Source of the DNA: Mycoplasma sp. CAG:956
GTDB taxonomy: Bacteria; Bacillota_I; Bacilli_A; RF39; UBA660
Assembly (NCBI GenBank): GCA_000433475.1
Contig: HF993109.1
Span: 133,712 to 197,711 of the forward strand
Direction: 5' to 3'
Length of the DNA: 64,000 bases
Shown one piece after another: positions 1 to 17,900 of this stretch (positions within the stretch are counted from its first letter, which is position 1; each line of letters starts with the position of its first letter). The notes below the pieces were generated by a model. That model was not told the DNA's origin. It saw nothing but the letters and a program-made list of their open reading frames with translations, and made no database searches. A program made the position numbers and the translations under genes.

Positions 1-1
1 T

Positions 2-853
2 TCATATAAAAGTGATGGTACTTTAGATGAAATGTATGAAAGAATATCAATGCTAGATGACGGTGAGAAAAAGGCCAAAGCCTTCTCTAAATATGAGCAA
101 TTATGTCGCAGTGTTGAACAAAGTCAAGGCATTGAAAAAATACTTGGTGATAATTTAAGTCAAGACGGTAAGTATGTTGTTTTCTTACCCGTTGGTCGCA
201 AAAAAGATGGTACCTATTATAATAGTGAAGATGGTAGTAAAATAAGTAGACAACAGGCTGTTTTAATAATGGAAGATTATACTATTTTAATTAGACAATA
301 TTTATATTCCAATGAGTATATGAAAATTCATGGTGATAAGTTATTATCTATTTATGAAAAGATTACTAAAAAACAAGAGTTATCTAAATATGTTGTTTTC
401 TTACCAGTTAGACGTAAAAAAGATGGAAGTTATTATAATAGTGAAGATGGAAGTAAAGTAAGCAAACAACAGGCTGTTTTAATAATGGAAGATTATACTA
501 TTTTAATTAGACAATATTTATATTCTAATGAGTATATGAAGATACATGGTGATAAGTTATTATCTATTTATAATAAAATCATTGCGAAACAAGAACTATC
601 TAGTGAAGATAAAGACTTCTTAAATAAAGAACAAGATAACATTATGTTACTAGATATGGTTAAAATTAAACATAAACCAGCCGTCTTAAATACCTTCAAT
701 AGTACTATAGTAAGTGTGATTGCTAGACACCAAGATTGGGAAAAATTAGATAAAAAAACTCTAAAGATAAGAATAGAAGCCAAGACTTCTGATATGGTTG
801 ATACAAACTCGCTTCTAAGTTACTATAGTAATAGTAAAAATGTTATCTACTGA
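2..853 (+). CDS. 5'-partial N-terminal part of a large tandem-repeat protein, terminated 4 codons after a frame-shifting 247-bp duplication (continues as ORF 840..4355 if one repeat copy is removed)
   Basis: Reading frame is open from window start; contains a 2x74-aa in-frame repeat; last 82 aa are re-encoded in another frame at start of next ORF. Confidence 0.5.
   Translation, partial: SYKSDGTLDEMYERISMLDDGEKKAKAFSKYEQLCRSVEQSQGIEKILGDNLSQDGKYVVFLPVGRKKDGTYYNSEDGSKISRQQAVLIMEDYTILIRQYLYSNEYMKIHGDKLLSIYEKITKKQELSKYVVFLPVRRKKDGSYYNSEDGSKVSKQQAVLIMEDYTILIRQYLYSNEYMKIHGDKLLSIYNKIIAKQELSSEDKDFLNKEQDNIMLLDMVKIKHKPAVLNTFNSTIVSVIARHQDWEKLDKKTLKIRIEAKTSDMVDTNSLLSYYSNSKNVIY
165..608 (+). repeat. 2 x 222-bp in-frame tandem repeat (74-aa unit KYVVFLPV.RKKDG.YYNSEDGSK.S.QQAVLIMEDYTILIRQYLYSNEYMKIHGDKLLSIY)
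   Basis: Direct comparison of nt 165-386 with 387-608; >90 percent identical. Confidence 0.8.
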
Positions 854-1088
854 AGATAAAGATTTCTTAAACAAAGAACAAGATAATATTATGTTACTAG
901 ATATGGTTAAAATTAAACATAAACCTGCCGTCTTAAATACATTCAACAGTACCATAGTAAGTGTGATTGCTAGACACCAAGATTGGGAAAAACTGGATAA
1001 AAAAACTCTAAAGATAAGAATGGAAGCCAAGACTTCCAATATGGTTGATACAAACTCGCTTCTAAGTTACTATAGTAATAGTAAAAAT
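602..1088 (+). repeat. 2 x 247-bp tandem duplication (unit length not divisible by 3) spanning the ORF1/ORF2 junction
   Basis: nt 605-841 and 852-1088 encode the same 80 aa (SEDKDFLNKEQDN...LLSYYSNSKN) in two different frames; ~93 percent nt identity; copy offset 247 nt. Confidence 0.85.
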
Positions 1089-4000
1089 AAATATGAATTA
1101 GCCGAATTTAATAAAGAAACTAATGGTAAACCTAAGTTGTTATTTGTTATGGATAAATTAAACGAAGGAGCCCATTTAAAAGGAGTAAAGGGTATTGTCT
1201 GGTTACGTCCATTAAGTGTTGATTCAAGAATACTATTCTATCAACAGTTAGGTAGATGTATTCATTCTTATCCTGATGGTCATATATTTACCGAAGAAGA
1301 ACGCCCAATAGTAATGGATTTAGTTAATAATATAAATACCGTTAACTTAAAAAGAAATCAATCTCCAATAAATGATTTAGAAGATTTGAAAACTATTATA
1401 GCTTGGATAAATGATAATGGTGGTAAACTTCCTAATAAGAATAGTAATATTTTAGAAGAAAAGAATTATGGTTTAAAATTAGATGTAATTTTATATCGCT
1501 ATATTAAATATTTTAATAATCAAGAAGAATTAAATAGCGTAAAAAATAAAAAAGTAATAGAGGAAATCTTAAGATTAGGTTCCCTAATTGACTTATGGAA
1601 TATCAAAATAGACGAACCGACAAGACAAAGAAAAGAAAAAGAATCAGAAAGAGATGAAGAAAAATTTTTACAAGGATTTTTACAAGTCGAAAGTTCATTC
1701 CGTGATTTTGTTGATTCAAAAGAAGAAATAGATGAGTTGGCATCGCCTGAGTCTACTTTCGATAAGATATTTAATTATTTGACTATTTTAAAAAATCAAG
1801 GGGTTGACATAAATAGTATTAGTAAGTGTGATAAATTGAAGGTAATTAAAACTGATGGTAATTATTTTCTTCAAATAATAAAAAATAAAAGAAAAAAAGG
1901 AAATGGTAAAACAGTTATTATAAATGAAGAAGAATATAAGGAACCGAGCTTAATTTGGATAGGAAGCTATGTCTATGCCTTTAGACAAGGAAAAAATAAT
2001 AAGGATTCAAAAAGTCCAGACTTAGAGGCTGACCAAATTAGTAGATTAAAGACTTTGAATTTCATTTTTGATTGGGAAGTAGATCCTATATTGAATCCAA
2101 GAAGTTTTGAAGATTATATCTTACTCTTAAAAGAGATGCAAAATTCTAAAGATAAGACTGGATATGATATAAACAATATTAAATTTTTAGAAGTAGTAAG
2201 AATATCAAAAATAAATGGTGAGTATGAGTTTGAATATTTTGCTAATAGAGAAGAAGCAAGAAAAAAATATGGCGAAGATGAAGAAATAATTGGAATAGGA
2301 CGCATTATTAATTGCTTTAAAAGAGGAAAAAATATAAATGAAAAAGATTTAACTGCTGAACAGATAAACGAGTTAAGAAATACTGGTTTAATGGTTGTAA
2401 CTGAAAAAGAAAGAGACCATATAATGATGCCCAAAAATTTTGATGATTATGTTAAAGTTTTACAGGCTTTGCAAAATGCTAAAGATAAGACAGGTTGTGA
2501 TATAAATAATATTAAATTTTTAGAGGTAGTAAGAATAATCAAAATAAATGATGAGTATGAGTTTGAATATTTTGCTAATAGAGAAGAAGCAAGAAAAAAA
2601 CATGGTGAAGATGTAGAAATAATTGGGGTAGGCGATGTTATTTATTGGTTCAAAAAAGGAAAAAGCCGTAGTGGAAAAGATTTAACTGTTGAACAGATAA
2701 ATTGGTTAAGAGATATTGGCTTGATGGTTGTAACTGAAAAAGAAAGAGACCCTATAATGAAACCCCAAAATTTTGAAGATTATGTCTTACTCTTAAAAGA
2801 GATGCAAAATTCCAAAGATAAGATTGACCGTGATATAAATGATATTAATAAGAGAAAAGTAGTAAGAATAACCAAAATAAACGATGGGTATGAATTTGAA
2901 TATTTTGCTAATAAAGAAGAAGCAAGAAAAAAATATGGCGAAGACGAAGAAATAATTGGAATAGGAGTAGTTATTAATTATTTTAAAAGAGGAAAAAGCA
3001 GTAGTGGTCAAAAAGATTTAACTACTGAACAGATAAAGCAGTTAAGAGATATTGGCTTGATGGTTGTAACTGAAAAAGAAAGAGATTCTATAATGAAGCC
3101 AAAATATTTTGAAGATTATGTCTTACTTTTAAAAGAAATGCAAAATACCAAAGATAAGACAAGTCGTGATATAAATAGTATTAAATTTTCAGAAGTAGTG
3201 AAAATAACAAAAATAAATGATGATTATGAATTTGAATATTTTGCTAATAGAGAAGAAGCCAGAAAAAAATATGGTAACGATGTAGAAATAATTGGAATAG
3301 GCCTAATTATTTATTGCTTTAAAAGAGGAAAAAGCAGTAGTGGTAAAAAAGATTTAACTGTTGAGCAGATAAAGCAGTTAAGAGATACTGGCTTGATGGT
3401 TGTAACAGAAAACGAAAGAGACCCTCTAATAGAGCCTAAAAGTTTTGATGACTACCTTCTGCTTTTAAAAGAAATGAAAAAGTTCAGAGATAAGACAGGT
3501 CGTGATATAAATGATTTTAAACCAAAAGAAGTAGTGAAAATAACAAAAATAAATGATGAGTATGAGTTTGAATATTTTGCTAATAGTGAAGAAGCAAGAA
3601 AAAAATATGGTGAAGATGTAGAAATAATTGGAATAGGCCTAATTATTTATTGGCTTAAAAAAGGAAAACTTAGCAATCGCGGAAGAGATTTAACTGTTGA
3701 GCAGATAGAAGGGTTAAGAGATATTGGTCTAAGGGTTGTAACCGAAAAAGAAAGAGACACTATAATGGAGCCTAAAAGTTTTGAAGATTATGTTGAACTT
3801 TTAAAAGAATTACAAGAAAATAAAATTGACATCAATGTAATTAAAGTCACAGATAAAATAAGAATTATAAAAAATGATATCGGTTATGATTTTCAAATTG
3901 TTCATAAAAGCAAAGTAATGGTAAATGGTAAAACGACAATTGCTAATAAAGAAGCATATTTTCAGAATGATTTAATGGCGATAGGGATAAAAATTAATCA

Positions 4001-4355
4001 CTTAAGGAAAGGCAAATATTCTGATAAAACATACCTAACCATAGACCAAATGAAAATATTATTAAGCATAGGCTTTAAATTTAATAAAGGAATAGAAGAT
4101 AAAATATATAAACAAGAAATATGTAAGAATCATAATATTGATTTAAAAATAAATGATAAAATAATTGAAAGAATATCAAAAATAGAATTAATAAGTAAGA
4201 TTAACTTTTTAGAAGCAAGTAATTTAGAACTAGTAGATAATGCCGGTAAACTAATAGATATATTTAGTATGAGTAGTATTGATATTCAAGATAACTATGG
4301 TATATCTTTAGAGTCTATAATAAATACTTATGGAAAAGGAGAAACGAGAAAATGA
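840..4355 (+). CDS. Giant HA-like tandem-repeat protein (1171 aa), no signal peptide, conserved family C-terminal module
   Basis: ATG start; ~7 tandem ~112-aa modules (..P.SFEDY..LLKEMQN.KDKTG.DIN.IKF.EVV.I.KIN.EYEFEYFANREEARKKYGEDEEIIGIG.II..FKRGK....KDLT.EQI..LR..GLMVVTEKERD); second half of module resembles HA domain; C-terminus ...ISKIELISKINFL...GKLIDIFSMSSIDI..NYGISLESIINTYG shared with three neighbours. Confidence 0.75.
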   Translation: MLSTEDKDFLNKEQDNIMLLDMVKIKHKPAVLNTFNSTIVSVIARHQDWEKLDKKTLKIRMEAKTSNMVDTNSLLSYYSNSKNKYELAEFNKETNGKPKLLFVMDKLNEGAHLKGVKGIVWLRPLSVDSRILFYQQLGRCIHSYPDGHIFTEEERPIVMDLVNNINTVNLKRNQSPINDLEDLKTIIAWINDNGGKLPNKNSNILEEKNYGLKLDVILYRYIKYFNNQEELNSVKNKKVIEEILRLGSLIDLWNIKIDEPTRQRKEKESERDEEKFLQGFLQVESSFRDFVDSKEEIDELASPESTFDKIFNYLTILKNQGVDINSISKCDKLKVIKTDGNYFLQIIKNKRKKGNGKTVIINEEEYKEPSLIWIGSYVYAFRQGKNNKDSKSPDLEADQISRLKTLNFIFDWEVDPILNPRSFEDYILLLKEMQNSKDKTGYDINNIKFLEVVRISKINGEYEFEYFANREEARKKYGEDEEIIGIGRIINCFKRGKNINEKDLTAEQINELRNTGLMVVTEKERDHIMMPKNFDDYVKVLQALQNAKDKTGCDINNIKFLEVVRIIKINDEYEFEYFANREEARKKHGEDVEIIGVGDVIYWFKKGKSRSGKDLTVEQINWLRDIGLMVVTEKERDPIMKPQNFEDYVLLLKEMQNSKDKIDRDINDINKRKVVRITKINDGYEFEYFANKEEARKKYGEDEEIIGIGVVINYFKRGKSSSGQKDLTTEQIKQLRDIGLMVVTEKERDSIMKPKYFEDYVLLLKEMQNTKDKTSRDINSIKFSEVVKITKINDDYEFEYFANREEARKKYGNDVEIIGIGLIIYCFKRGKSSSGKKDLTVEQIKQLRDTGLMVVTENERDPLIEPKSFDDYLLLLKEMKKFRDKTGRDINDFKPKEVVKITKINDEYEFEYFANSEEARKKYGEDVEIIGIGLIIYWLKKGKLSNRGRDLTVEQIEGLRDIGLRVVTEKERDTIMEPKSFEDYVELLKELQENKIDINVIKVTDKIRIIKNDIGYDFQIVHKSKVMVNGKTTIANKEAYFQNDLMAIGIKINHLRKGKYSDKTYLTIDQMKILLSIGFKFNKGIEDKIYKQEICKNHNIDLKINDKIIERISKIELISKINFLEASNLELVDNAGKLIDIFSMSSIDIQDNYGISLESIINTYGKGETRK
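1750..4100 (+). repeat. Array of ~7 tandem 333-339-bp (111-113-aa) coding repeats; five central copies (approx 2088-3771) near-identical, flanking copies degenerate
   Basis: Repeat starts at ~2088, 2421, 2754, 3090, 3426, 3772 read directly from sequence. Confidence 0.85.
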
Positions 4356-4672
4356 TATTTGATAAATACTTAAATGATACTTATTTAGATATCTTATATA
4401 GTAATTATAATTTAGATTATTTAAAATCAATTGATCCTAATAACTTTGTTGAAATATATAACTTACTTAAAAATAAAGGCTTCTATTTTATAGAAGATAT
4501 TATAATTAATTATATAGATATTTTTGAGTTAGATAGTTATTACTTAAATAAAGTTTTAACTTACTTAGAAAGTAAAATGGGTAAAGATTATATTAAAAGA
4601 ATTGGTCTTAATATGACTATTTTAGATAAAATAATCGATACTACAATAAATCTAGAAATGAAAGAAGACTAG
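4352..4672 (+). CDS. Small hypothetical protein (106 aa) translationally coupled (ATGA overlap) to the giant repeat gene
   Basis: ATG overlaps TGA stop of upstream gene; GGAG ~10 nt upstream; no recognisable motif. Confidence 0.45.
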   Translation: MIFDKYLNDTYLDILYSNYNLDYLKSIDPNNFVEIYNLLKNKGFYFIEDIIINYIDIFELDSYYLNKVLTYLESKMGKDYIKRIGLNMTILDKIIDTTINLEMKED

Positions 4673-4939
4673 CAAGTAACTAAACTGTTAAAGAAATTTA
4701 GCAGTTTTTTGCAAATATCAGTCACATGAAGAATATTTAAAAAAATTGTAAAAAGATCAAATTTAATCGTTGACGTGTTATGATAACAATAGGCATTAGA
4801 ACAAAAAAATATAATGTAATAGTGTTTTTGAAGAAAAATTAAATAAAACTTTGATGTGTAGAAGGTCAAAAGAACCATTACAAAGGAATGCTTAATTTAG
4901 ATGTGCATTTTGTATTTAGGTTACTTGTATAATGTAGTT

Positions 4940-5378: not shown

Positions 5379-6530
5379 ATGCCTAAAATTAATCAACCAG
5401 CCTCTAAAATCAGAATGTCATTTGATGAATGGTTTCCTGTAGCCCAAAAATATTATCAAGAACATAAAAATCTCTTAGTACCCCTAGATTATGAAACTAA
5501 AGATGGTAAAAAGTTAGGAAAATGGATAGCCAGTAAAAGAAAAGATTATGCTAATAATTTATTATCCTTAGAAAAAATTAAGGCTTTAGATAGTATTGGT
5601 ATGGTTTGGAGTATCAACGAAAAGAAATGGAATGATATGTTTAATCTTTTAATAGAGTACAAAAATATCCATGGTAATTTAGATATATCATCTTCATATG
5701 TAACCTTAAGTTGTGTAACTTTAGGCATTTGGCTAAGAGAACAACAAAATTCCTATCTTAGGGGTACCCTAAAAGAAGAAAGACAAGAAAAGTTAGAAAG
5801 TATTGGCATTATTTGGCAAACCAATGAAACAAAATGGTATGAAATGTATAAATATGCTAAAGAATATCAAAAAGAACATGGCACTTTAATAACTACCAAG
5901 AATTATATTACTCCAAATGGTAAGTCTCTAACTGAATGGTTACAAGCCCAACGTAGTGGCTACCACAAGAAAACATTAAAACCCGAAAGAATAAAACTTC
6001 TTGAAGCCATTGGCATGGTCTGGAGTATAAATCAAAGTTATACTTGGCATGATATGTATTTACTTGCCCAAGAATATCAAAAAGAACATGGCAATCTAAT
6101 TATTCCTAGAAATTATAAAAGTAAAAATGGCTTAAATTTAGGCTACTGGCTTTATAAAGAAAAACTAAAATATCGTCAAGGAAAATTAGCACCAGAAAAA
6201 ATTATTGCCTTAGAACACATTGGTATCGTTTGGACTAACAAAATTAATCATGACATTTCTAAATATTTAAGAAAACTAAAAGAATCTGACAATCCAATTA
6301 TTATCGATGAAAAAATTAATGCGGATATTTTAAATAATATTTCTTTAATCGAATTAGAAAGTAAAATTAAATATATAACCGATATGGGAGCCCTACCAAT
6401 AGATAACACTGGTCGTTTAATAGATATATTTACTATAAGTAATACTGATATGGAAGAAAGATACGGCATATCTTTAGAAGCCATGATTGAATCATTTGAA
6501 GTAAGCAGTGCTAGAAAACTATATTATTAA
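5379..6530 (+). CDS. HA (helicase-associated) domain repeat protein, 5 tandem HA repeats plus family C-terminal module
   Basis: RBS AAAGGA; repeats of W..(F/Y)....Y...H.NLLVP..Y.T.DGK.LG.WI...R..Y....L..E.I..L.SIGMVW; C-term ...NISLIELESKIKYI...G.LIDIFTISNTDMEERYGISLEAMIESF. Confidence 0.75.
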   Translation: MPKINQPASKIRMSFDEWFPVAQKYYQEHKNLLVPLDYETKDGKKLGKWIASKRKDYANNLLSLEKIKALDSIGMVWSINEKKWNDMFNLLIEYKNIHGNLDISSSYVTLSCVTLGIWLREQQNSYLRGTLKEERQEKLESIGIIWQTNETKWYEMYKYAKEYQKEHGTLITTKNYITPNGKSLTEWLQAQRSGYHKKTLKPERIKLLEAIGMVWSINQSYTWHDMYLLAQEYQKEHGNLIIPRNYKSKNGLNLGYWLYKEKLKYRQGKLAPEKIIALEHIGIVWTNKINHDISKYLRKLKESDNPIIIDEKINADILNNISLIELESKIKYITDMGALPIDNTGRLIDIFTISNTDMEERYGISLEAMIESFEVSSARKLYY

Positions 6531-6734: not shown

Positions 6735-9359
6735 ATGAATGAATTATTTAATATGACTAATTGTTATACAGATACTGACTATTATTATTTTTATCAAGAT
6801 TTAAATAAAGATAATAAGTTTAATTTTTCTGTTTATAATAATCATACTTTAAAAGACTTACTAAAAATAGTAGAAACTAAATATGGTAAAGATACCAGTT
6901 GTCTTTCTCTAAATGTTTTAACCAATGTTAGTTTAATCTATGGCAGTAATGACTTTATAAAAAAATATATTATAGTTAAAATACCAAAAGTAATTTTAAA
7001 ACAAAAAAAGTTTAAGGAAATAGTAAAAAATATTAATTATTATTTTAATGACGATCAAAAACAAATATTATTTAAAATATATCCCAAAGAAAAAATAAAA
7101 CAAGAATATGATCATTTTTTAAATCCTCAAAATTTTCTAGACTATGCTAATATTTTAAAAAAATTACAAGAAGCTGGATACGACTTAAATGACATAAAAT
7201 TTGATAGTAAATTAAAAGTTGAAAAAGTAAATGATAGTTATAAATTTACTATTATTAGAAAAAAATTAAAAAAAGTAGGTCAAGTTTATGTTATAGATAA
7301 TAAAACTGAGTATAATGATCCTAATCTAATTAAAATAGGTCGCAAATTATATTATTATGAAAAGGGTAAGAAGTACCAATTTGAAGAAAGCATAGATTTA
7401 AATGCCGAAGAAATAAAAACACTACGTGATATTGGATTATATGTTATTTCAGAAAAAAATAGAGATCATATTTTATACCCTAAAAATTTTGAAGATTATT
7501 TTAATCTTTTGAAAAAATTACAAGAATCAGGTATTGATATTAATAGCATTATAGCTAGTGATAATTTAAGAATAATAAAATTTAATAACATTTACAAGTT
7601 TGAAGTAATAAAGAAAAATGTCAAAAAAGCTAAAGATGATAGTAATAACACTTTAAATAACCTAGAATCCAATCAAGTAAACATAATAAAAATTGGTAAA
7701 AAAGTTACTGCTTTTAGAAAAGGTAAAAATTCCGTTGCCACCGATAGTGAACCTTTAAGTGATGATAATTTAGAAAATCTGCAAAGCATTGGCTTTAATA
7801 CCCCTTATCTAAAAAGATTAGAAAGAGAAATAAATCCTAAAACTTTTACTGATTATTTTAATCTTTTAAAAAAATTACAAAATTATGGTGTTGATATAAA
7901 TAAAATAACTAGTAATGATAAAGTAAAAGTTATCAAAATAAATAATGATTTTAGCTTTAAAATTATAAAAAGAATAGTAAAAACAGATAAACAAGGTCAA
8001 AAAATCACAATAAATAGCGATGAATATTATAAAGAAGACCTAATACCAATAGGCTATAAAGTAGTGGCCTTTAAAAAAGCCAAACAAGGTCCCGATAAAG
8101 ATAGTCCTTATCTTACCGAAGAAGAAATTAAAAAATTACAAAGTATTGGTTTAGAAGTAATAAAAGAAAGAGATATAATTTTAAATCCTAAAAGTTTCCT
8201 TGATTATATGGCTATTTTAAAAAAACTCCAAGAAGATGGTTACAATCTTAATGATATCTATTTTACCGATAAGTTAAAAATAACTAAAGAATCAAATAAA
8301 TATAAGTTAGAAATTATAAAAGAAGACTCTAAAGAATATAAAATACCAGGTTTAATGACCATCGGTCAAAAACTATATTGTTTTAAAAGAGGAAAATATA
8401 ATAATAGTCCTAGTAGTAGAGATTTAACCCCAGATGAAATAGCTATTTTAAATACCTTAGGTTTTAAATTAGCTATTGAAGAAAAAAAATCCATTGATTA
8501 TATTGAATTATTAAAAAGATTAAAAGAATCTGGTTATGATATAAATAAGATTAAATATTATGATAAAGTAAAAATAACTAAAAATAATCATGAATTTAAA
8601 TTAGAAATTATAAATGAAAATGATCCATTATATAACCAACCAAATTTAATATTAATCGGACCACACGTTTTATCTTTTAAAAAAGGAAAAAAATTTCAAT
8701 ATTCAGGACCAACTGATTTGAGTTCTGATGAAATAACTAGATTACAGAATATCGGTTTAGTAATATTAAATGATCATGTATTGTATCCGCAAAGTTTTAA
8801 TGATTATTTTAATATTTTAAAACTTTTACATGAGTCTGGTTATAATATAATGGATATCAAGACTACCAGTCGCCTTAAAGTAACAAAAGAAAATGGTAAA
8901 TATTTCTTTAAAATTATTAACAAGGAAGATCAAGAATGGCAAAATAAAGATTTAATTTTTATTGGTCGTAAAGTAAAATCTTTTGAAAGTGGTAAAAATT
9001 CTCCTGGTAATCACTCTAGTTATTTAACTGTAGTAGAAATAAATAATCTCCTTAGTATTGGTTTTACTTTTAAAAAGAAAATCGAAGACATTATTTATAA
9101 AAGAGAAATATGTAAAACTTTTAATATCGATATAAAATTAAATCAAGAAATAATAGATAGAATATCTAAATTGGAATTAATAAGTAAAATTAAATATTTA
9201 ATTAAAGAAAAGAATATGCCTATATTAGATAATAATGGTAATTTAGTAGATATTTTTACCATGAGTAGTCTCGATATAGAAGAAAAATATGGCATATCTT
9301 TAGATACTATAATTTCTACTTATGGTTATAAGCAAGTAAAAAAGTTAAATTTAATATAA
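6735..9359 (+). CDS. HA-like tandem-repeat protein (874 aa), ~7 divergent ~110-aa modules, family C-terminal module
   Basis: Modules .NP..F.DY..LLKKLQE.G.D.N.I......K..K.N..Y.F.II.K.......I.....Y.....I.IG.K...F.KGK........L...EI..L..IG; C-term ICKTFNIDIKLNQEIIDRISKLELISKIKYL...NGNLVDIFTMSSLDIEEKYGISLDTIISTYG. Confidence 0.7.
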   Translation: MNELFNMTNCYTDTDYYYFYQDLNKDNKFNFSVYNNHTLKDLLKIVETKYGKDTSCLSLNVLTNVSLIYGSNDFIKKYIIVKIPKVILKQKKFKEIVKNINYYFNDDQKQILFKIYPKEKIKQEYDHFLNPQNFLDYANILKKLQEAGYDLNDIKFDSKLKVEKVNDSYKFTIIRKKLKKVGQVYVIDNKTEYNDPNLIKIGRKLYYYEKGKKYQFEESIDLNAEEIKTLRDIGLYVISEKNRDHILYPKNFEDYFNLLKKLQESGIDINSIIASDNLRIIKFNNIYKFEVIKKNVKKAKDDSNNTLNNLESNQVNIIKIGKKVTAFRKGKNSVATDSEPLSDDNLENLQSIGFNTPYLKRLEREINPKTFTDYFNLLKKLQNYGVDINKITSNDKVKVIKINNDFSFKIIKRIVKTDKQGQKITINSDEYYKEDLIPIGYKVVAFKKAKQGPDKDSPYLTEEEIKKLQSIGLEVIKERDIILNPKSFLDYMAILKKLQEDGYNLNDIYFTDKLKITKESNKYKLEIIKEDSKEYKIPGLMTIGQKLYCFKRGKYNNSPSSRDLTPDEIAILNTLGFKLAIEEKKSIDYIELLKRLKESGYDINKIKYYDKVKITKNNHEFKLEIINENDPLYNQPNLILIGPHVLSFKKGKKFQYSGPTDLSSDEITRLQNIGLVILNDHVLYPQSFNDYFNILKLLHESGYNIMDIKTTSRLKVTKENGKYFFKIINKEDQEWQNKDLIFIGRKVKSFESGKNSPGNHSSYLTVVEINNLLSIGFTFKKKIEDIIYKREICKTFNIDIKLNQEIIDRISKLELISKIKYLIKEKNMPILDNNGNLVDIFTMSSLDIEEKYGISLDTIISTYGYKQVKKLNLI

Positions 9360-9459: not shown

Positions 9460-10857
9460 ATGATTAAAAAAAGTATAAGAAAAAATCCAAAGGATAATTT
9501 TGATGAGTGGTTTAAAATAGCAGCATATTATTATAAAAAACATAACAATCTATTAGTGCCCGCTAACTATTTAACCGAGGATGGTAAAAAATTAGGAGAG
9601 TGGATAATTTATATTCGAACTAAATATAATTCTGATGACCAAAAAATAACTAAAGAGCAAAAAGAAATGCTAGATTCTATTGGTATGGTTTGGAACTTAT
9701 ATGATTATAGATGGCAAGAAAGATTTAATCAAGTTAAAAAGTTTTATGATGAATATGGAACCATAGAACTTTTACCAACCTATCAGGGAAAAGAAGGCTT
9801 AAAACTCTTAAACTGGATAAAATTTCAAAGAAATATTTACTATAGTAAAAGTAAGAAACCAAAAGATCTAGAAAAAATTGCTAAATTAGAAAGTATTGGC
9901 GTCATTTGTCATCATAAAGATGAAATGTGGGTTTCCATGTATAACTTAGCTTTCTTATATTATAAGAAAAACAATAATCTATTGATTCCTGCTTGTTATG
10001 AAACTACTCTTGGTAAAAAACTTGGTATCTGGATAAGAAATCAAAGAAAAAGTTATTCTGATGGTAATTTATCTGAAATTAAAATCGCAGCCTTGGAATC
10101 TATTGGCATGGTTTGGCATGTTTATGAAAATAAGTGGAACCTAATGTATAAAGAAGCCTTAACTTATTATCAAAAATATCATACTATCAGTATTTATAAA
10201 GACTATAAACCAACTTATGTAACCAAAGAAGAACTATGTCAGTGGTTAGCAACTCAAAAGATATATTATAAACAACATAAAAATTTAACTCTTGAGCAAT
10301 ATAAGAAACTAAATTTAATTAAAATAGACTTTGACTATCAAGAAGATAATTGGAATTATATGTATAACTTGGCAACTAATTACTATTTAGAAAATGGTCA
10401 TTTACTAATTCCTAGAACCTTTAAATCTGAAGGTAAGAATTTAGGTATTTGGTTAGAATCACAACGTCAACATTACCAAAAACAAAAACTTTCTGAAGCA
10501 AAAATTCTTCTTTTAGAATCTATCGGTATCATTTGGCAACCGAGAAAAAATCTTTCATCTATATATAATTATTTAGATGAAAATTATCCTTTAATTGATA
10601 AACGACTTAACAGGGATGTTTTAAACCGTATTTCCTTACTAGAACTAATTGCTAAAATTAATTATTTAATTTGTTGTAAACATACTTCCTTTATTTATAG
10701 TAATGGGCTTTTAAAAGATATATTTTCTATGAGTAGTATAGCTATCAAAAATGATCCTAACTATGGTATTTCCTTAGAAGAAATAATTAATACCTATGGT
10801 AAAGAATATATTTTAAAATATAATAAAAATATGAAAGGTAAAACTTTAGACTTATAA
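9460..10857 (+). CDS. HA (helicase-associated) domain repeat protein, 6 tandem HA repeats plus family C-terminal module
   Basis: RBS AAAGGGGA; HA repeats (..W...Y......Y.......L.P..Y.T..GKKLG.WI..QR..Y......E.KI..LESIGMVW); C-term LNRISLLELIAKINYL...NGLLKDIFSMSSIAIKNDPNYGISLEEIINTYG. Confidence 0.75.
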   Translation: MIKKSIRKNPKDNFDEWFKIAAYYYKKHNNLLVPANYLTEDGKKLGEWIIYIRTKYNSDDQKITKEQKEMLDSIGMVWNLYDYRWQERFNQVKKFYDEYGTIELLPTYQGKEGLKLLNWIKFQRNIYYSKSKKPKDLEKIAKLESIGVICHHKDEMWVSMYNLAFLYYKKNNNLLIPACYETTLGKKLGIWIRNQRKSYSDGNLSEIKIAALESIGMVWHVYENKWNLMYKEALTYYQKYHTISIYKDYKPTYVTKEELCQWLATQKIYYKQHKNLTLEQYKKLNLIKIDFDYQEDNWNYMYNLATNYYLENGHLLIPRTFKSEGKNLGIWLESQRQHYQKQKLSEAKILLLESIGIIWQPRKNLSSIYNYLDENYPLIDKRLNRDVLNRISLLELIAKINYLICCKHTSFIYSNGLLKDIFSMSSIAIKNDPNYGISLEEIINTYGKEYILKYNKNMKGKTLDL

Positions 10858-10948: not shown

Positions 10949-13561
10949 ATGGAATATGGTATCGATTATATATTAAAATTACCAACTGAAGATATAAAAA
11001 CTTATTTAGAAAGTGCTAGTATAATAGATATCCTAGCCATCTTAGAAAATATCAAAAAACGTAAGGAAATGGATTATGCTTCTTTAAACAAATTAGAAAA
11101 ATTAGAAGAGCAAATTAAAATAAATAAAAATTACCTTACTGATATCGATAAACGTATAAATTTTGCTACTAAAACTAATGCTCCTAAAGTAGAAGTTGAT
11201 TTATTATGGGAAGAATATAGTCGTTATGATGCCATTATCGATGATTTAACTAGTAAAAAAGAACAATTAATTCAAGGATTTAATGATAAAAAACAAGCCA
11301 TTTTTACTTTAGCATGGAATATGATCTTAGAAGCTCCTGTATCTAAATTAGAAGATTACCGAAACAGCCTTATCACATGGCTAAAAAATAGAATAGAAGC
11401 TATTGAAACTAATAAGAGCAACAGGGAAATAACTACCAATACACTTTTAGAAGATAGAAACTTTACTAAAGAAGATCTAACTGTTAAATCAATTGATGCC
11501 GAGATTAAAGAAATGGAATCTCAAGTTCTAAATCATGAACTTATTTTAAATGAAGAAACTATTGGGAAGATTAAATCATTAAGAGCTAAAAAAGAATCAT
11601 TAGAACATGAAACTTTTACTTTTGTTTGCACAGAAAAGATAAAAACGTCTCTAAAAACTATTAGTAATGATATAACTAAATTACAGATGGAATTATCTAA
11701 CATTATTCAAATGGACATTGAATCTTTAAAAGAAATGATTTTAAGTGATTATGCTCAAGGCAAAGAAGAAATAAAATTAGCCAACTACGTTCGTATTTAT
11801 CGCTCTTATTTAGAAAATATTAGTAAAGTACCTCTTACTTTAAAAGCAGCATATCGTAATATTTGCCTAAACTATGCTAATCTTTTAAATTCCATAGAAA
11901 ATCCTAGCTTTGAAGGGGAAACTCTTAATGATTTAGATATTAAATTAAAAGAATTACATAATTATATAAAAACTTTAGAACAATATAAAACTAAAAAAAA
12001 TGATAAAACTACCGAAACTAAGTTCTTATATACTACTGTAAGACAACAAGGCTTATTTGAACTTCCTTTCTCTAAAGATAAATGGTTATCTTATTTTGGT
12101 AAATATTTTGAATCCTTACTTAACGAAATTAAACCATTAGAAGAAAAGAATAAAGAATATATCTCTTTAACAACAGTTAGTCTAAAGAGTAAAAAGATAG
12201 AAGAAGAATTAGACTTATATCGTAAAGACTTAAGAAGTATGTTAGATGAACTATATAACAAAGTTTTATCCATATATTTAAAGAATAATTTATATATTAA
12301 TGTTAATGTTTATGATTATCGTGATACCGAAACATTTACTAAGTACTTAGAATATCAAACTATTAGTATCGATAAAGAAATAGCAAGTGTTAAAACTACT
12401 ATTGAAGGATTAAATAGTAAGAAGAGTAATATCTTAGAATTAATTAATGATACTTATAGTAAGATTGATACTGATATTAAAGCTAAATTAAATAGTATTT
12501 TTAATGGAACTTATGTAAAAGAAGAAGAACAAGAAGAAAAACCTCATCATTTCTTTGCAAGTCCTACTACATTAGAACCTAGTTATAATGATACTTTTGA
12601 TGATACAACTAGTAATTTAGAACCTATAAGTAAGGTAGAAGAAGAACCAGAAGTATCTGAATTTGATTCTTTCTTTGCTACTGATATTCCTTTTAAAGAT
12701 GATGATACAGAAGAAAATAATGAACTACCAGAAGAAGCTCCTACAAGACCTAAACATGAATTAGAACCAGATGAAGTTCCTTTGAAAGAAAAAGAAATCA
12801 AAGATGAACAAAGTAACAATTCTAGCATAACCACCTTTAATCCCGATGATATCTTTGGTAGTACATCAAATACTTTAGATAATGCTTTAGAAGAAGAGCA
12901 AAAACAAGAACCAGTAGTTTCAAAAGAAGAAGATGATACGGTAATTTCTTTTGATAGTGAAGATATAGCATCAACAAAGGCCTCAGAAAAAAAAGAAGAG
13001 GCTAGTGAAGCTAGTGCAGTATCTGATGATATAAACTTTGATGATGCTATATCATCATCTGATAGAGAAGCTTTTAAAGAACTACTTGAACCTCAAAAAG
13101 TGCCAGATTTTAATACCATAATTAATACTCCTGAACCAAGTACTAAAGAAGAAAAAAACAAAATCAAAAAAAGAGGACTTAAAGTAATTAAACAAGAACC
13201 AGTAGTTTCTAAAAAAATGTCAAAGAAAACACCAGAGGTAGTTTCAAAAACAACTGTTAAAACGGATGCTACTGAGATTAAAGAACGAATCGAAAACAGC
13301 CAAAATGATAGACAAAGTAAAAATGTACCACCACTATTTAATCCGGCTAGTGCTAGTGATGTAAAAAGTGAATACAATGATACTAATGCTCCAATTGATT
13401 TAAATGCTTTTCTAAATGGCAACCTTTCAAATCCAACAGAAAAACAAGAAACTAAAGAAGTTGATGATAAAACTAAAAAATTAACTTTAAGTCAAGATGA
13501 TAATATAAATTTGATGGACTTTTTAAACCAAATTGAAAATAACGATGCTAAAGTAGCTTAA
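10949..13561 (+). CDS. Hypothetical 870-aa coiled-coil protein with long acidic Ser/Glu/Pro-rich disordered C-terminal half
   Basis: RBS AAGGAG; heptad-like K/E/L-rich N-terminal 520 aa; C-terminal ~350 aa dominated by E, D, S, P, T. Confidence 0.7.
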   Translation: MEYGIDYILKLPTEDIKTYLESASIIDILAILENIKKRKEMDYASLNKLEKLEEQIKINKNYLTDIDKRINFATKTNAPKVEVDLLWEEYSRYDAIIDDLTSKKEQLIQGFNDKKQAIFTLAWNMILEAPVSKLEDYRNSLITWLKNRIEAIETNKSNREITTNTLLEDRNFTKEDLTVKSIDAEIKEMESQVLNHELILNEETIGKIKSLRAKKESLEHETFTFVCTEKIKTSLKTISNDITKLQMELSNIIQMDIESLKEMILSDYAQGKEEIKLANYVRIYRSYLENISKVPLTLKAAYRNICLNYANLLNSIENPSFEGETLNDLDIKLKELHNYIKTLEQYKTKKNDKTTETKFLYTTVRQQGLFELPFSKDKWLSYFGKYFESLLNEIKPLEEKNKEYISLTTVSLKSKKIEEELDLYRKDLRSMLDELYNKVLSIYLKNNLYINVNVYDYRDTETFTKYLEYQTISIDKEIASVKTTIEGLNSKKSNILELINDTYSKIDTDIKAKLNSIFNGTYVKEEEQEEKPHHFFASPTTLEPSYNDTFDDTTSNLEPISKVEEEPEVSEFDSFFATDIPFKDDDTEENNELPEEAPTRPKHELEPDEVPLKEKEIKDEQSNNSSITTFNPDDIFGSTSNTLDNALEEEQKQEPVVSKEEDDTVISFDSEDIASTKASEKKEEASEASAVSDDINFDDAISSSDREAFKELLEPQKVPDFNTIINTPEPSTKEEKNKIKKRGLKVIKQEPVVSKKMSKKTPEVVSKTTVKTDATEIKERIENSQNDRQSKNVPPLFNPASASDVKSEYNDTNAPIDLNAFLNGNLSNPTEKQETKEVDDKTKKLTLSQDDNINLMDFLNQIENNDAKVA

Positions 13562-14069: not shown

Positions 14070-14121
14070 CATAATTCTTGCTTATCCTTTATCTTTGTGT
14101 TACCTTAAATTTGGTGATAAT

Positions 14122-14895
14122 ATGCAAATAATTAAATATACTAAAAAAGGTTCTAATAAATATGAATTGACTTTAAAAGATAATACTAAATTACTAGTAT
14201 ATACTGACCTTATTTTAGAATATAACTTATTAATAAGAAAAAATCTTGATCCTAATACTTTAAAGAAAATAAAAAGTGCTAATCTAAAACTAGAATGTTA
14301 TTATAAAACCTTAAAGTATTTAAAAAATACTAAATGTACTAGTGATATAAAAAACTATTTAAAAGATTATCCTTCTAATATAGTTGATTATACTATTAAA
14401 AGATTAACTAAAGAAGGTTATTTAAATGATAATAATTACATTAAATCTTATATAAATACTAAAATAAATTTAAGTAATGATGGTTATTATAAAATATATT
14501 ATTATTTAAAAAATAAAGATTTAGATGAAACTATTATAAAAAATTATCTAAATGATATTGAAGATAATATCTGGTTAGATAAAATAAATAAGATAGTAAA
14601 TACTAAATTAAAAAGTAATACTAAGTATAGTAATAACTTATTAATAAGTAAAATAAAAACTTATCTTAAAACACTTGGATATCAAGATTATCTAATTAAT
14701 ATAGCCTTAGATAATATTAATTTAGATACCTCTAAAGAAGATGAAAAATTAGAAAAAGACTATCTAAAATTATTTAATAAATATAAAAATAAATATGAAA
14801 AAAATAAGTTAAATTATATTTTAATAGGTAAACTATATCAAAAAGGTTATGATTTAGATAAAGCCAAAAGAGTAGTAGAAACTTCCAATTTGTGA
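14122..14895 (+). CDS. recX: Recombination regulator RecX
   Basis: GGTGA RBS then ATG; three-repeat helical pattern with ..YELTLKDNTKL.V..D.I..Y.L.....L........K.A.......YYKTLKYL..T..S..E...YL......I...I.RL...GYLNDN.Y..SYI.......GY.KI...L..K.. typical of RecX family; tool start 14095 is TTG. Confidence 0.6.
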   Translation: MQIIKYTKKGSNKYELTLKDNTKLLVYTDLILEYNLLIRKNLDPNTLKKIKSANLKLECYYKTLKYLKNTKCTSDIKNYLKDYPSNIVDYTIKRLTKEGYLNDNNYIKSYINTKINLSNDGYYKIYYYLKNKDLDETIIKNYLNDIEDNIWLDKINKIVNTKLKSNTKYSNNLLISKIKTYLKTLGYQDYLINIALDNINLDTSKEDEKLEKDYLKLFNKYKNKYEKNKLNYILIGKLYQKGYDLDKAKRVVETSNL

Positions 14896-14920: not shown

Positions 14921-17900
14921 ATGAATAATAAATTAAGTATTGAAGAATTTAGAAAATATAAAGAACAATTACAAAAAATAATTGATGACTTTAAAAATAA
15001 TTATGAAGTAATGAAAAATAATCCTTCTTATAATGAAGCCCAAGAAGAAGAAAAAAGCATTGCTGCCTATTTTAAAATTGAACAAGATCTTTTTAGTCAT
15101 GATTTAAGTGCTATCCCATACGAAGAGTATCAAAACCTATCAATTATGGCAACAGACCAAGAAGAATTAGATCTGTCAAATAGCCATGCTAATATTGATT
15201 TTTCACTCATCGAGGTATTTGGACACTGCAATTTTAAGGGGTGTAACTTAAAAAATATTGAAAAAGTAAATGATAGAATAAGTCCTAAGTATTTAGATAC
15301 TGATATCTTTTTAAAAAATAAAGATTTATTTTTATCTAGTAGTTTTCCCGAATGGTTCCAAGAAAAATGGTACTATGGTGATTTATCAATCGAAGATGTA
15401 ACTAAATTAGATAAGACTTTAATAGAAGAACTTATCAGTAATCCGCAAATTTTATATCATCTTAGTAATAGTCATGATGTTTATATAATTAGAAATTTAG
15501 GCTTAAAAAAGGCTCTTTCTATCTATAATTATTCTAAAGAAGAATATCAAGTCTTAAATAACCTTATATTTAATCTATCAAGTGCTAATTTTAATAAGAT
15601 AGACCAATCATTAACTGATCCCGAAGCAATTATTAAAAATATTTATCAAATCTCTGTTGATGATATATTAGCGGTAGATAATGAGTATTTTAAAAGAAGA
15701 TTAAAGCCAGAAAGTTATCATCAAAAATTTGTTGAGGCTAATGAAAATATTTTTAAAACTAAGAGTAACTTACCAGAAGATGTTAAAAATAGATATTATG
15801 AACACAATCTTAGTGTAAATGATGTTTTAAATAACTATGAGGAATTCAAAAATATTCCCTTATTAGGATTTATGAAATCAATAACAAGTAGTTCTAAAGA
15901 TATAATTTGTAATATTAATTTAGCTTATGGTAGTATGGCTTTTCAACAAGTTTATCCATTATATCCCAAATTAATTAAACATTTAAATGATGCTGATATT
16001 TTTTTAAGTTTTAATAAAAATTATGATGTAAAAACTGGTTTAAGAGATGCCGTTACTAATTGCTTAGAATGCTTTAAAGAAAAAAAAGTACCCGATTGGG
16101 CAAATGAAATGTTTACAAGTATTGTTCCTAAATATTACGATATAAGCAATTTGAAAAAATATAATCCCCAAATTTGCTTATATGATCCCTTGCAACGCAA
16201 AATAGTAGAAACTAACAACGTTGATAATGCAATCAAATTTAATGACGAAACACATTTTTTTGATTATGTGGACGATAGAAGTCCCGTAAATGCCTTTATC
16301 TTATATTTAAAAAGAAGTAATATTGACTTTAAAGAATTTGCTACTTATCAAGAATTTCGTGCCTTTATGGCAGAGCATTTAGGAAAAATGCGAGAAAAAA
16401 ATTACTTTAAAGATTATGATTCCTACGCCTTTATTCCGACCTATTCCAAAGCTTTTTACCAAGATTTTCGTCATATCTTTATTGATTTAAATAGCAATGG
16501 AACCTTACAAAAAGCCTTCTATGATAATAGATTAACACCTGATTATATAAGGCTTTATCCTAAGTGTTTTAAAGATTTAGAACACGAAGATTTAAGATAT
16601 GTTATAAGTAGCGATAATAAAAAATTTAAAGAAGTATTTATTCCTTTTTATACCAGTCATTTTGGTAATTTAGCATTATTAGATATTTTTAAAAAATATG
16701 CTTATAACAATTATCTAGTTGATTCCCTTGACCAAATAAAGTTAGATGAGGGTATGACTAAGGAACAAATTGATAAAAAAATAAGAAGCATTACTTATAG
16801 TAATATTTTAAAATACAGCCAGTTTTATTGGAAAAATTTAAAAAGTGATCCTTTATTTGCTAAAGAATATCCAGAACTTATTCTATCCGAAGATGAAATA
16901 ATGACACCAAGTGGCATAGTCCAAAATGACATTATCGATAAATTTTACAGAGGTAAATTAACTTTTGATGATATATTTACTTGTAAACCGCTAGCTTTAG
17001 CCTTACAACATAAAAATATCAATGTTGCCATTAGAAACAATAGTACTTATTATTTTGGCAATGGTATGAACGAAGCTCAAATTTATCTAAAACAGTTAGG
17101 CCAAGAAGACTTTCTAAAATTATGTAGTACTTTTGGTAAATTCTTAGATAATTCCATTAACAGAATTAAATTTTCTAATGATATTTCTTATTCCGAATTA
17201 TGTAAACAATTAGAAGAACTAACTGTTAAAAAAGCAACTTATGAAGGTATTCCTTTTAATGAAAGCAATGCCCCTTCCTTCTTAGTACAACAGCATCCTG
17301 AACTTTTCTTGGATGAATCTGCTCCTTGGGGGTTAAAAATGGCTTTTGAGGATGGTATTGATTTTTACTCTTTAGCAGCTAACTATAATGAGACTTTCCC
17401 TTTCTTAAAAGATAAAGCGGCTGTAAGTTTCTTTATCAGAAAAGATAAAGGACATAAAGGTGCCATTGCTAATTATTTTAATCTTTTTGGTAATATAGAT
17501 GCCTTAAAACTTGCTGGTAAAAAGCCCGATATTGTAACTAAAATGATTCATCATGATAAGGTTTACAATTTAAGAACCTGGTATTTAAAAACAGGTGGTA
17601 AATTTATTCCTGATCCAGTTGTTATGGAAAATTTTCCCCTAGATGATGTTGATAAATTCTTAACAGCAGGATTTAAATGGAGCAATTTAATGCGTTTATC
17701 AGAATTTACTAAAAATGATGAAACCAAAGAAGCCTTGCTAAAAATTGCTTATGTTTTTGGTACTTTTGATAATGATGATAGGGGCTATAAAAAAGTATAT
17801 GACTTATTAACTGAATTGCCGACTAAGTTTAAAGAAGATATTGGTTATATCTTTGATAACTTAGATAATGCTCTAGATAGTAATGCTAATTTTAATGTTT

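What the first reader, a model, noticed from the sequence alone, without database searches (positions are those of the whole stretch)
1750..4100. Near-identical 333-339-bp intragenic tandem repeats (~7 copies)
Five central copies (starts ~2088, 2421, 2754, 3090, 3426) are nearly identical at the nucleotide level, with degenerate copies on each flank. High DNA identity implies recent expansion or ongoing gene conversion, so the repeat number is likely variable. It is also an obvious site for short-read assembly collapse, so the true copy number may differ.
Basis: seen in the sequence. Interest (0 to 1): 0.55.

Follow-up and report, generated by a model that had tools for sequence, protein, structure and literature searches.

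The report
Diverged domain repeats in a helicase
The repeats are seven copies of a 112-amino-acid protein domain, distantly related to a known DNA-binding domain, at the tail of a giant helicase from an uncultured human-gut bacterium; they are old and only about 80% alike, so this is a fairly ordinary repeat-domain protein whose copy number differs between strains.

Summary
The repeat array is real. It has seven in-frame units of 333-339 bp at 1746-4094: five central units and one degenerate unit on each flank. The central units are not near-identical. They share 79-85% nucleotide and 67-79% amino-acid identity, with dS 0.30-0.66 and dN/dS 0.27-0.49. They are old duplicates under purifying selection, not a recent expansion or a homogenised array.

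Each unit encodes one confidently folding domain (pLDDT 93). It is a lineage-restricted relative of the helicase-associated (HA, PF03457) domain that carries an insert. The array forms the C-terminal arm of a ~2,042-aa SF2 helicase of uncultured human-gut Bacilli.

Module number does vary, from 3 to 7 among 110 homologues and from 3 to 5 central units among conspecific strains. These are divergent haplotypes. Hybrid units and rare near-identical neighbours point to occasional unequal crossing-over.

Collapse risk is low. The longest exact match between two units is 49 nt, and five other assemblies give a 100% identical five-unit array.

The function is inferred, not shown: probably a nucleic-acid-binding or substrate-recognition arm.

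Side findings: a 463-nt frameshifting insertion at 385-847, and a helicase gene about ten times more diverged than its flanks.

The parts
1..4355 (+). 3' part (about 1,300 codons) of a ~2,042-codon SF2 helicase gene that starts upstream of the window. Here it is read in frame 2 up to the stop at 851-853, then in frame 3 from ATG 840 to the stop at 4353-4355.
   Evidence: ORF list. P0001, a 2,042-aa intact homologue, is 99% identical and carries PF04851 ResIII (71.7 bits) and PF00270 DEAD. Removing 385-847 gives one open frame from the window start to 4355.
385..847 (+). 463-nt insertion that shifts the frame. It consists of 457 nt (385-841) exactly identical to the homologous segment of another allele (L020/L021), plus a 6-nt repeat of GTTATC (379-384 and 842-847).
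   Evidence: TRF and direct-repeat rows 169-571 and 597-1088. BLAST of the segments against related loci. Exact-match extension. The junctions are absent from all related loci and from JGI metagenome contigs.
1746..2081 (+). R0, a flank-type module (112 aa, pI 9.1) with a second beta-hairpin in place of helix 3.
2082..2414 (+). R1, central-type module (111 aa).
2415..2747 (+). R2, central-type module (111 aa).
2748..3083 (+). R3, central-type module (112 aa).
3084..3419 (+). R4, central-type module (112 aa). This unit was modelled: pLDDT 93, helix-helix-beta hairpin-helix-helix-helix.
3420..3755 (+). R5, central-type module (112 aa), the most diverged of the five (78.6-82.4% nt).
3756..4094 (+). 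R6, flank-type module (113 aa, pI 9.2).
4095..4355 (+). C-terminal helical domain of about 85 aa. It is shared (47-60% identity) with the 874-aa, 383-aa and 465-aa neighbouring proteins.
7110..9089 (+). Six diverged flank-type copies of the same module, inside the 874-aa paralogue ORF 6735-9359. This protein lacks a helicase core but shares the helicase's N- and C-terminal domains.
   Evidence: Profile hits at E 1e-10 to 1e-17. N-terminal BLASTP E 7e-24. C-terminal alignment.
5379..6530 (+). Neighbouring 383-aa protein with four canonical HA domains plus the shared C-terminal domain.
   Evidence: PF03457 at 218.7 bits..
9460..10857 (+). Neighbouring 465-aa protein with five canonical HA domains plus the shared C-terminal domain.
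   Evidence: PF03457 at 227.4 bits..

Best explanation
The array encodes seven tandem copies of a ~112-residue, independently folding protein domain. The domain is a lineage-restricted, insert-bearing derivative of the helicase-associated (HA) domain. Together the copies form the C-terminal arm of a ~2,042-aa SF2 (ResIII/DEAD-type) helicase of uncultured human-gut Bacilli.

Shown:
- The five central units are old duplicates of a derived subtype, flanked by two units of an older subtype that also builds the neighbouring 874-aa paralogue.
- They evolve under purifying selection with a few very variable positions.
- They are neither homogenised nor recently expanded.
- Module number differs between alleles and paralogues (3-7). 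Hybrid units and rare near-identical neighbours show that occasional unequal crossing-over between units changes the number.

Inferred:
- The modules act as a string of nucleic-acid-binding or substrate-recognition domains that position or target the helicase motor.
- Module number and a few exposed helix residues tune what is recognised.
For: Anatomy:
- All units are in frame. Each folds with pLDDT 93 alone and about 85-90 within the array. The pTM of 0.44 for the whole arm means well-folded beads in an undetermined arrangement.

Family:
- The Pfam HA model hits weakly (25 bits).
- hhalign of the unit profile against the canonical HA repeats of the neighbouring genes gives 65% probability and E 6e-5 over the last two helices.
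- The unit profile, searched against 1.84 billion representatives, finds 188 proteins. About 12 clusters match the whole module. Most other listed hits match only its C-terminal half. All five multi-stretch hits sampled are canonical HA-repeat proteins (PF03457 at 450-695 bits).

Age and selection:
- dS is 0.30-0.66 and dN/dS 0.27-0.49.
- Within-protein identity equals between-protein identity.

Copy number:
- Homologue lengths step by about 111 aa. Module number runs from 3 to 7, and from 3 to 5 central units in conspecific strains.
- 12 of 110 homologues have a terminal unit that is central-type in its first two-thirds and R6-type in its last third. Two more cross over nearer the end.
- Near-identical units occur in P0057 (98% aa, adjacent units) and L002 (97.6% nt, units 1 and 3).

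Function:
- HA domains are cited as 'previously shown to bind DNA' (Mills et al. 2013, cited in PMC12191111).
- The arm sits next to a helicase core.
- The most variable positions 74, 77 and 78 fall on one face (i, i+3, i+4) of the helix equivalent to HA helix 2.
Against: - The function is not shown. The Pfam HA score is below the gathering threshold (25 against 28.4 bits).
- The central units are neutral to acidic (pI 5.2-8.0, net charge -3 to +1). The flank units and the canonical HA proteins of the locus have pI about 9.0-9.3. This fits a protein-binding or regulated role as well as it fits DNA binding.
- The per-site excess of nonsynonymous change at positions 74, 36 and 35 is not individually significant (p 0.08-0.23). 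It was also computed on a tree that ignores recombination.
- In this window the gene is interrupted by a frameshifting insertion, so this copy may not be functional, or the sequence may be misassembled.
Confidence: 0.7

Rival explanations
1. One reading: a recently expanded or gene-conversion-homogenised array whose copy number changes rapidly and may be collapsed in this assembly.
For: - Copy number differs among related genomes.
- Contigs of several metagenome-assembled genomes end inside the array (L007, L009, L011).
- A few other alleles have near-identical units.
Against: - Units are 79-85% identical, with dS 0.30-0.66.
- The longest shared exact word between units is 49 nt.
- The five-unit array is 100% identical in five other assemblies from different samples.
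- The 3- and 4-unit alleles are diverged all along the array, not deletion derivatives.
- Units within a protein are no more similar to each other than to units elsewhere.
Confidence: 0.05
2. The modules are protein-protein interaction or scaffold domains, or a spacer that sets a distance, rather than nucleic-acid binders. The array recruits partners such as the neighbouring HA proteins that share the C-terminal domain.
For: - Central units are neutral to acidic (pI 5.2-8.0), unlike the basic flank units and canonical HA proteins.
- Four proteins of the locus share a C-terminal domain that could mediate assembly.
- The number of beads varies without loss of the end modules.
Against: - The only family relation found is to HA, which is cited as DNA-binding.
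- The conserved basic FKRGK motif lies in the HA-like half.
- The arm is fused to a helicase motor.
Confidence: 0.25
3. The helicase is a diversifying sensor of foreign DNA (an unrecognised defence or anti-mobile-element factor). The array is its variable recognition arm, kept diverse by selection and by recombination with paralogues.
For: - The helicase gene is 90-92.5% identical between strains whose flanks are 98.7-99.2% identical. It shows a mosaic of 100% blocks and 69-90% blocks.
- Several paralogues occur per genome (L001, L003, L015).
- An AbiEii gene lies next to it in one strain.
- A few positions are very variable.
Against: - There is no significant match to any PADLOC defence model; only weak partial helicase-core hits to Cas3 and a type IV enzyme appear. 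NCBIfam gives no match.
- No nuclease or other effector domain was found.
- The neighbourhood is chromosomal housekeeping: RecX, FtsK, PFOR.
- Overall dN/dS is below 1.
Confidence: 0.12
4. The repeat array itself is an assembly artefact, with units falsely duplicated or mixed from several strains.
For: - The window has an odd chimeric insertion 1.2 kb upstream, in the same gene.
- All related sequences are metagenome assemblies.
Against: - Identical arrays occur in five other assemblies made with different assemblers.
- Every unit is in frame and folds.
- The same architecture occurs in more than 100 homologues.
Confidence: 0.03

Closest known systems
Helicase-associated (HA) domain repeats, Pfam PF03457 (NMR structure 2KTA, Bacteroides vulgatus BVU_0683)
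   Same: - Tandem copies lie C-terminal to an SF2 helicase core.
- The last two helices and the motif 'G..I..f.rGk...L..eqi..L..iGl' align with canonical HA repeats.
- Canonical HA proteins are encoded next door.
   Different: - The unit is 112 aa rather than about 64-70. It carries a ~35-45-residue beta-hairpin plus a helix (or a second hairpin) inserted in the middle.
- It scores below the Pfam threshold.
- The full module is confined to about a dozen 50%-identity clusters out of 1.84 billion.
- The central subtype is acidic to neutral.
mTERF repeat proteins (e.g. human MTERF1 bound to DNA, 3n6s)
   Different: - Pfam mTERF does not match.
- The output does not say which part of the arm matched. 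It may be the shared C-terminal helical domain rather than the repeat units.
Intragenic tandem repeats with near-identical units (contingency loci and surface-protein repeat arrays)
   Same: The repeat is in frame and unit number differs between strains.
   Different: The units are about 20% diverged, with no long identical stretches. The protein is a cytoplasmic helicase. The same allele is stable across samples.

Membership tests
HA domain (Pfam PF03457) | Scores at or above the Pfam gathering threshold (28.4 bits). | tested here: not met
   25.0 bits for ORF 840-4355. 20.0 bits for the full-length P0001. Only profile positions 45-63 are matched.
HA domain (Pfam PF03457) | Profile-level homology to bona fide HA repeats. 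| tested here: met
   - hhalign of the unit profile against nine HA repeats of the neighbouring genes gives 65% probability and E 6e-5 over 44 columns.
- The unit profile retrieves canonical HA-repeat proteins from 1.84 billion representatives at E down to 4e-17, through its C-terminal half only.
HA domain (Pfam PF03457) | Three-helix fold as in 2KTA. | tested here: inconclusive
   [not shown]
HA domain (Pfam PF03457) | Occurs in tandem next to a helicase core. | tested here: met
   Seven modules follow the ResIII/DEAD core in P0001 and in more than 100 homologues.
HA domain (Pfam PF03457) | Binds DNA. | not testable with these tools
   Only the literature statement for a canonical HA domain is available. 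The central units are not basic.
SF2 helicase (ResIII/DEAD) | Walker A, DExH and motif VI in one polypeptide. | tested here: met
   - In P0001, PF04851 scores 71.7 bits and PF00270 42.1 bits.
- GSGKS, DELH and TATP are read.
- QQLGRCIH lies within the window ORF.
- In the window itself the N-terminal half lies outside the sequence, and the frame is broken at 385-847.
Rapidly variable (contingency-type) intragenic tandem repeat | Near-identical units that allow slippage or frequent unequal exchange. | tested here: not met
   Units are 79-85% identical in DNA and the longest shared word is 49 nt. The array is identical in five other samples.
Array under concerted evolution (gene conversion) | Units within a gene are more alike than units between genes. 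| tested here: not met
   Median aa identity is 72.3% within proteins, 72.1% between proteins at the same position and 70.5% at different positions.
Diversity-generating retroelement target | Variation confined to adenine positions of a template, with a reverse transcriptase nearby. | tested here: not met
   Adenine columns are the least variable (28% against 31-70% for the other bases). No reverse transcriptase was found among the ORFs scanned.
mTERF repeat family | Pfam mTERF match or a strong fold match. | tested here: inconclusive
   [not shown]
Known anti-phage defence systems (PADLOC) | Match to a defence protein model. | tested here: not met
   Only weak partial helicase-core hits appear: Cas3 at 26.9 bits and type IV REase at 22.5 bits.

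The most novel reading that the evidence does not exclude
The helicase is a hypervariable, recombining recognition machine. Its arm would be a modular reader of nucleic acid, in which each ~112-aa module contributes a few specificity residues (positions 35/36, 74, 77/78, 100). Module number and identity would be shuffled by recombination among alleles and paralogues, loosely comparable to other modular repeat readers. It would then serve strain-specific recognition of foreign or self DNA in uncultured gut Bacilli.
Probability: 0.12. Interest if true: 0.7.

Novelty: new variant of a known kind. Interest (0 to 1): 0.3.

Why it matters
For the scan, the result mainly corrects the record. These are diverged domain repeats, not a fast-evolving or collapsed near-identical array, and the copy number of five central units is reproducible.

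Biologically it defines an undescribed subtype of the poorly understood HA domain. The subtype is 112 aa long, carries a hairpin insert, has no Pfam model or solved relative, and is confined to one clade of uncultured gut Bacilli. It also shows that the helicase carrying it is about ten times more diverged between strains than its neighbours. If the modules prove to be specific nucleic-acid readers, the locus would be a natural example of modular recognition with variable module number.

Tried and rejected
- Recent expansion or gene conversion: rejected by identity, dS and the within- versus between-protein comparison.
- Short-read collapse: rejected by k-mer analysis and five identical independent assemblies.
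- DGR-type mutagenesis: rejected, with no adenine bias.
- Phage or plasmid origin: tblastn of the array found nothing in 50,697 phage and 72,556 plasmid records.
- Defence-system membership: no PADLOC or NCBIfam family.
- Solved relatives by sequence: none for P0001 or for the unit profile.
- Foldseek against the PDB: nothing at E below 0.2.
- The AlphaFold-database fold library was not available.
- Looking up the window's own 1,171-aa ORF in the assembly index found no record.
- Both insertion junctions were absent from JGI metagenome contigs. Whether the insertion is real therefore stays open.
- The paper on the HA NMR structure is not held in the library. Only its title and a citing sentence could be used.
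- A literature search for this helicase family gave nothing relevant.
- Per-site selection tests were only suggestive.
Full report
OBSERVATION

Tandem Repeats Finder reports one array at 2081-3809 with period 336, 5.2 copies, 83% matches and score 2201. The direct-repeat finder gives five copies spaced 333, 333, 336 and 336 bp, at 72-85% identity to the reference copy. The array lies in ORF 840-4355 on the + strand.

Using the protein frame, I set seven units: R0 1746-2081, R1 2082-2414, R2 2415-2747, R3 2748-3083, R4 3084-3419, R5 3420-3755 and R6 3756-4094. Each is 333-339 bp and in frame. A profile of the central units scores R1-R5 at E about 1e-62, R6 at 3e-13 and R0 at 8e-6.

The identity estimate is wrong. 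R1-R5 are 78.6-85.4% identical in DNA and 67-79% in protein. R0 and R6 are 49-61% identical in DNA to the central units and 34% identical in protein to each other.

AGE AND MODE OF EVOLUTION

Between the five central units, synonymous divergence is 0.30-0.66 and dN/dS is 0.27-0.49. A parsimony count on 58 distinct units gives an overall ratio of about 0.45. These are old duplicates under purifying selection.

In 110 full-length homologues, units within a protein are 72.3% identical (median). Units at the same position in other proteins are 72.1% identical, and units at different positions 70.5%. There is no concerted evolution and only weak positional orthology. The exception is the first central unit, whose nearest relative is another first unit in 96 of 109 cases.

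Variation is not adenine-biased, so a retroelement-driven mechanism is excluded. A few positions are very variable: alignment columns 35, 36, 74, 77, 78 and 100. At columns 74, 36 and 35 the nonsynonymous rate is 2-2.5 times the global synonymous rate. None of these is individually significant.

COPY NUMBER

Homologue lengths fall in steps of about 111 aa: roughly 1595, 1708, 1818, 1930 and 2040. Total modules per protein run from 3 to 7, and the window's allele is at the top of that range.

Among contigs that encode the identical 106-aa downstream protein, the helicase has 1,818, 1,931 or 2,042 residues. That corresponds to 3, 4 or 5 central units. These are not recent deletion variants. Against the 5-unit allele, the 4- and 3-unit alleles are 77-99% identical in 100-nt windows all along the array.

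The five-unit array of the window is 100% identical in five other assemblies from different samples: L013, L015, L018, L020 and L021. Identity with L020 runs unbroken from window 1248 to 4712.

The mechanism of change leaves visible footprints.
- 12 of 110 homologues have a terminal unit that is central-type in its first two-thirds and R6-type in its last third. The switch is at the conserved IG motif.
- Two more homologues cross over nearer the end of the unit.
- A few alleles hold near-identical units: P0057 units 2 and 3 at 98% aa, and L002 units 1 and 3 at 97.6% nt.

Occasional unequal crossing-over is thus shown for the family, though not for this allele.

ASSEMBLY RISK

The longest exact match between two units is 49 nt. 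No word of 51 nt or more is repeated within the array, and none of 61 nt or more anywhere in 1-4700. Assemblers with k of 51 or more, and ordinary reads, therefore resolve the array.

Contigs of related genomes do often end in this gene. Some end inside the array (L007, L009, L011). Others end in its variable 5' part or just before R0 (L008, L017, L018, L019). This fits strain heterogeneity and the presence of paralogues rather than within-array repetition.

WHAT THE UNIT IS

The ORF is the 3' part of a ~2,042-aa protein. P0001 is 99% identical and has a ResIII/DEAD helicase core at residues 544-695. Motif VI (QQLGRCIH) lies in the window ORF.

The relation to the HA domain rests on several results.
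- Pfam's HA model (PF03457) hits the repeat only weakly, at 25 bits against a cut-off of 28.4.
- The neighbouring 383-aa and 465-aa proteins are strong canonical HA-repeat proteins, at 219 and 227 bits.
- A profile of 62 diverse units aligns with those HA repeats at 65% probability and E 6e-5 over the last two helices.
- Searched against 1.84 billion representative proteins, the profile finds 188 proteins. About a dozen clusters match the whole 114-position module. Most other listed hits match only positions about 54-112, in 4-11 stretches each. All five such multi-stretch hits sampled are canonical HA-repeat proteins, with PF03457 at 450-695 bits.

AlphaFold2 models one unit with pLDDT 93. 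The fold is a helix, a short helix, a beta-hairpin and then three helices. The whole arm (R0 to the C-terminus, 869 aa) gives pLDDT 84.6 but pTM 0.44. That means seven well-folded beads in an undetermined arrangement. In R0 and R6 a second hairpin replaces helix 3.

No solved structure is a clear relative.
- Foldseek finds nothing at E below 0.2.

The unit is therefore an HA derivative with a ~35-45-residue insert. It has no Pfam model and is restricted to this clade.

The flank subtype is likely the older one. It also builds the six modules of the neighbouring 874-aa protein at 7110-9089.

ORGANISM AND CONTEXT

Related loci come from metagenome-assembled genomes labelled uncultured Bacilli or Tenericutes from human gut. 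The window has about 27% G+C and long ORFs under genetic code 11. The surrounding genes are chromosomal: RecX, FtsK, a PPIase, PFOR, ABC transporters and two tRNAs. Nothing similar occurs in the phage or plasmid collections. No defence-system model matches.

FUNCTION

This part is inferred. HA domains are cited as DNA-binding (Mills et al. 2013, quoted in PMC12191111). The arm is fused to a helicase motor. The HA-like half keeps a basic FKRGK motif. The most variable residues 74, 77 and 78 lie on one face of the helix equivalent to HA helix 2.

I therefore favour a string of nucleic-acid-binding or substrate-recognition modules. Against this, the central units are neutral to acidic (pI 5.2-8.0), whereas the flank units and the locus's canonical HA proteins have pI about 9.0-9.3. 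A protein-binding or scaffold role remains a serious rival.

SIDE FINDINGS

(a) The two other tandem repeats that TRF reports, at 169-571 and 597-1088, are one event. A 463-nt insertion at 385-847 is made of 457 nt exactly identical to the homologous stretch of the L020/L021 allele, plus a 6-nt GTTATC repeat. It shifts the frame and splits the gene into ORFs 32-853 and 840-4355. Deleting it restores one frame from the window start to 4355. Its junctions occur nowhere else that I could search. The 6-nt overlap is too short for a simple k-mer misjoin. Whether the insertion is real cannot be decided here.

(b) The helicase gene is 90-92.5% identical between strains whose upstream and downstream DNA is 98.7-99.2% identical. 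It shows a block mosaic, and there are several paralogues per genome. The gene is a local hotspot of divergence and recombination.

VERDICT

The repeat is real and ordinary in kind: diverged domain repeats in a large protein. It is misjudged as near-identical. Its number does vary between lineages, through rare unequal exchange rather than ongoing instability. The domain subtype is undescribed, and the gene's hypervariability is the most interesting lead.

Noticed in passing
window 385-847 (with 169-1088): A 463-nt insertion lies in the helicase gene. 457 nt are 100% identical to the homologous segment of another allele (L020/L021). It is flanked by a 6-nt GTTATC repeat. It shifts the frame and splits the gene into ORFs 32-853 and 840-4355. 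The junctions are not found in any related locus or in JGI metagenome contigs. Real insertion or strain chimera is undecided.
   Followed up: yes
window 1-4355 compared with L012, L013, L014: The helicase gene is 90-92.5% identical between conspecific strains whose flanking genes are 98.7-99.2% identical. Blocks of 100% identity alternate with blocks of 69-90%. This makes it a local divergence and recombination hotspot.
   Followed up: partly
window 6735-9359: An 874-aa paralogue has no helicase core. It carries six diverged flank-type copies of the same module (7110-9089), plus the helicase's N-terminal domain of about 110 aa (BLASTP E 7e-24) and its C-terminal domain.
   Followed up: partly
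window 4095-4352, 9081-9356, 6285-6527, 10561-10854: Four proteins of the locus (the helicase, the 874-aa protein and the 383- and 465-aa HA proteins) end in the same ~75-85-aa helical domain, at 47-60% identity with 23 invariant columns. No Pfam family matches it. It may be an assembly or docking domain.
   Followed up: partly
[not shown]
   Followed up: no
window 2082-3755 compared with 1746-2081 and 3756-4094: Central-type modules are neutral to acidic (pI 5.2-8.0). Flank-type modules and the canonical HA proteins of the locus are basic (pI 9.0-9.3).
   Followed up: partly
L001 2980-5010 and 8889-11237; L003 1824-3182 and 8892-10922; L015 53-1051 and 6757-9123: Two helicase paralogues, each with its own repeat array, lie a few kb apart in several related genomes. 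In L015 an AbiEii-family gene lies between them.
   Followed up: no
P0001 residues 1-540 (upstream of the window): The helicase has a conserved N-terminal region of about 540 residues with no Pfam, NCBIfam or PDB match.
   Followed up: no
window 14921-19513 and 10949-13561: A 1,530-aa ORF and an 870-aa ORF have no match above threshold in Pfam, NCBIfam or PADLOC. By eye, the C-terminal half of the 870-aa ORF looks acidic and low in complexity. They lie in the same gene cluster, next to a RecX homologue at 14095-14895.
   Followed up: no
window 34146-34940 (-): An IS-type transposase with an rve integrase core and an HTH_21 domain lies on the minus strand.
   Followed up: no
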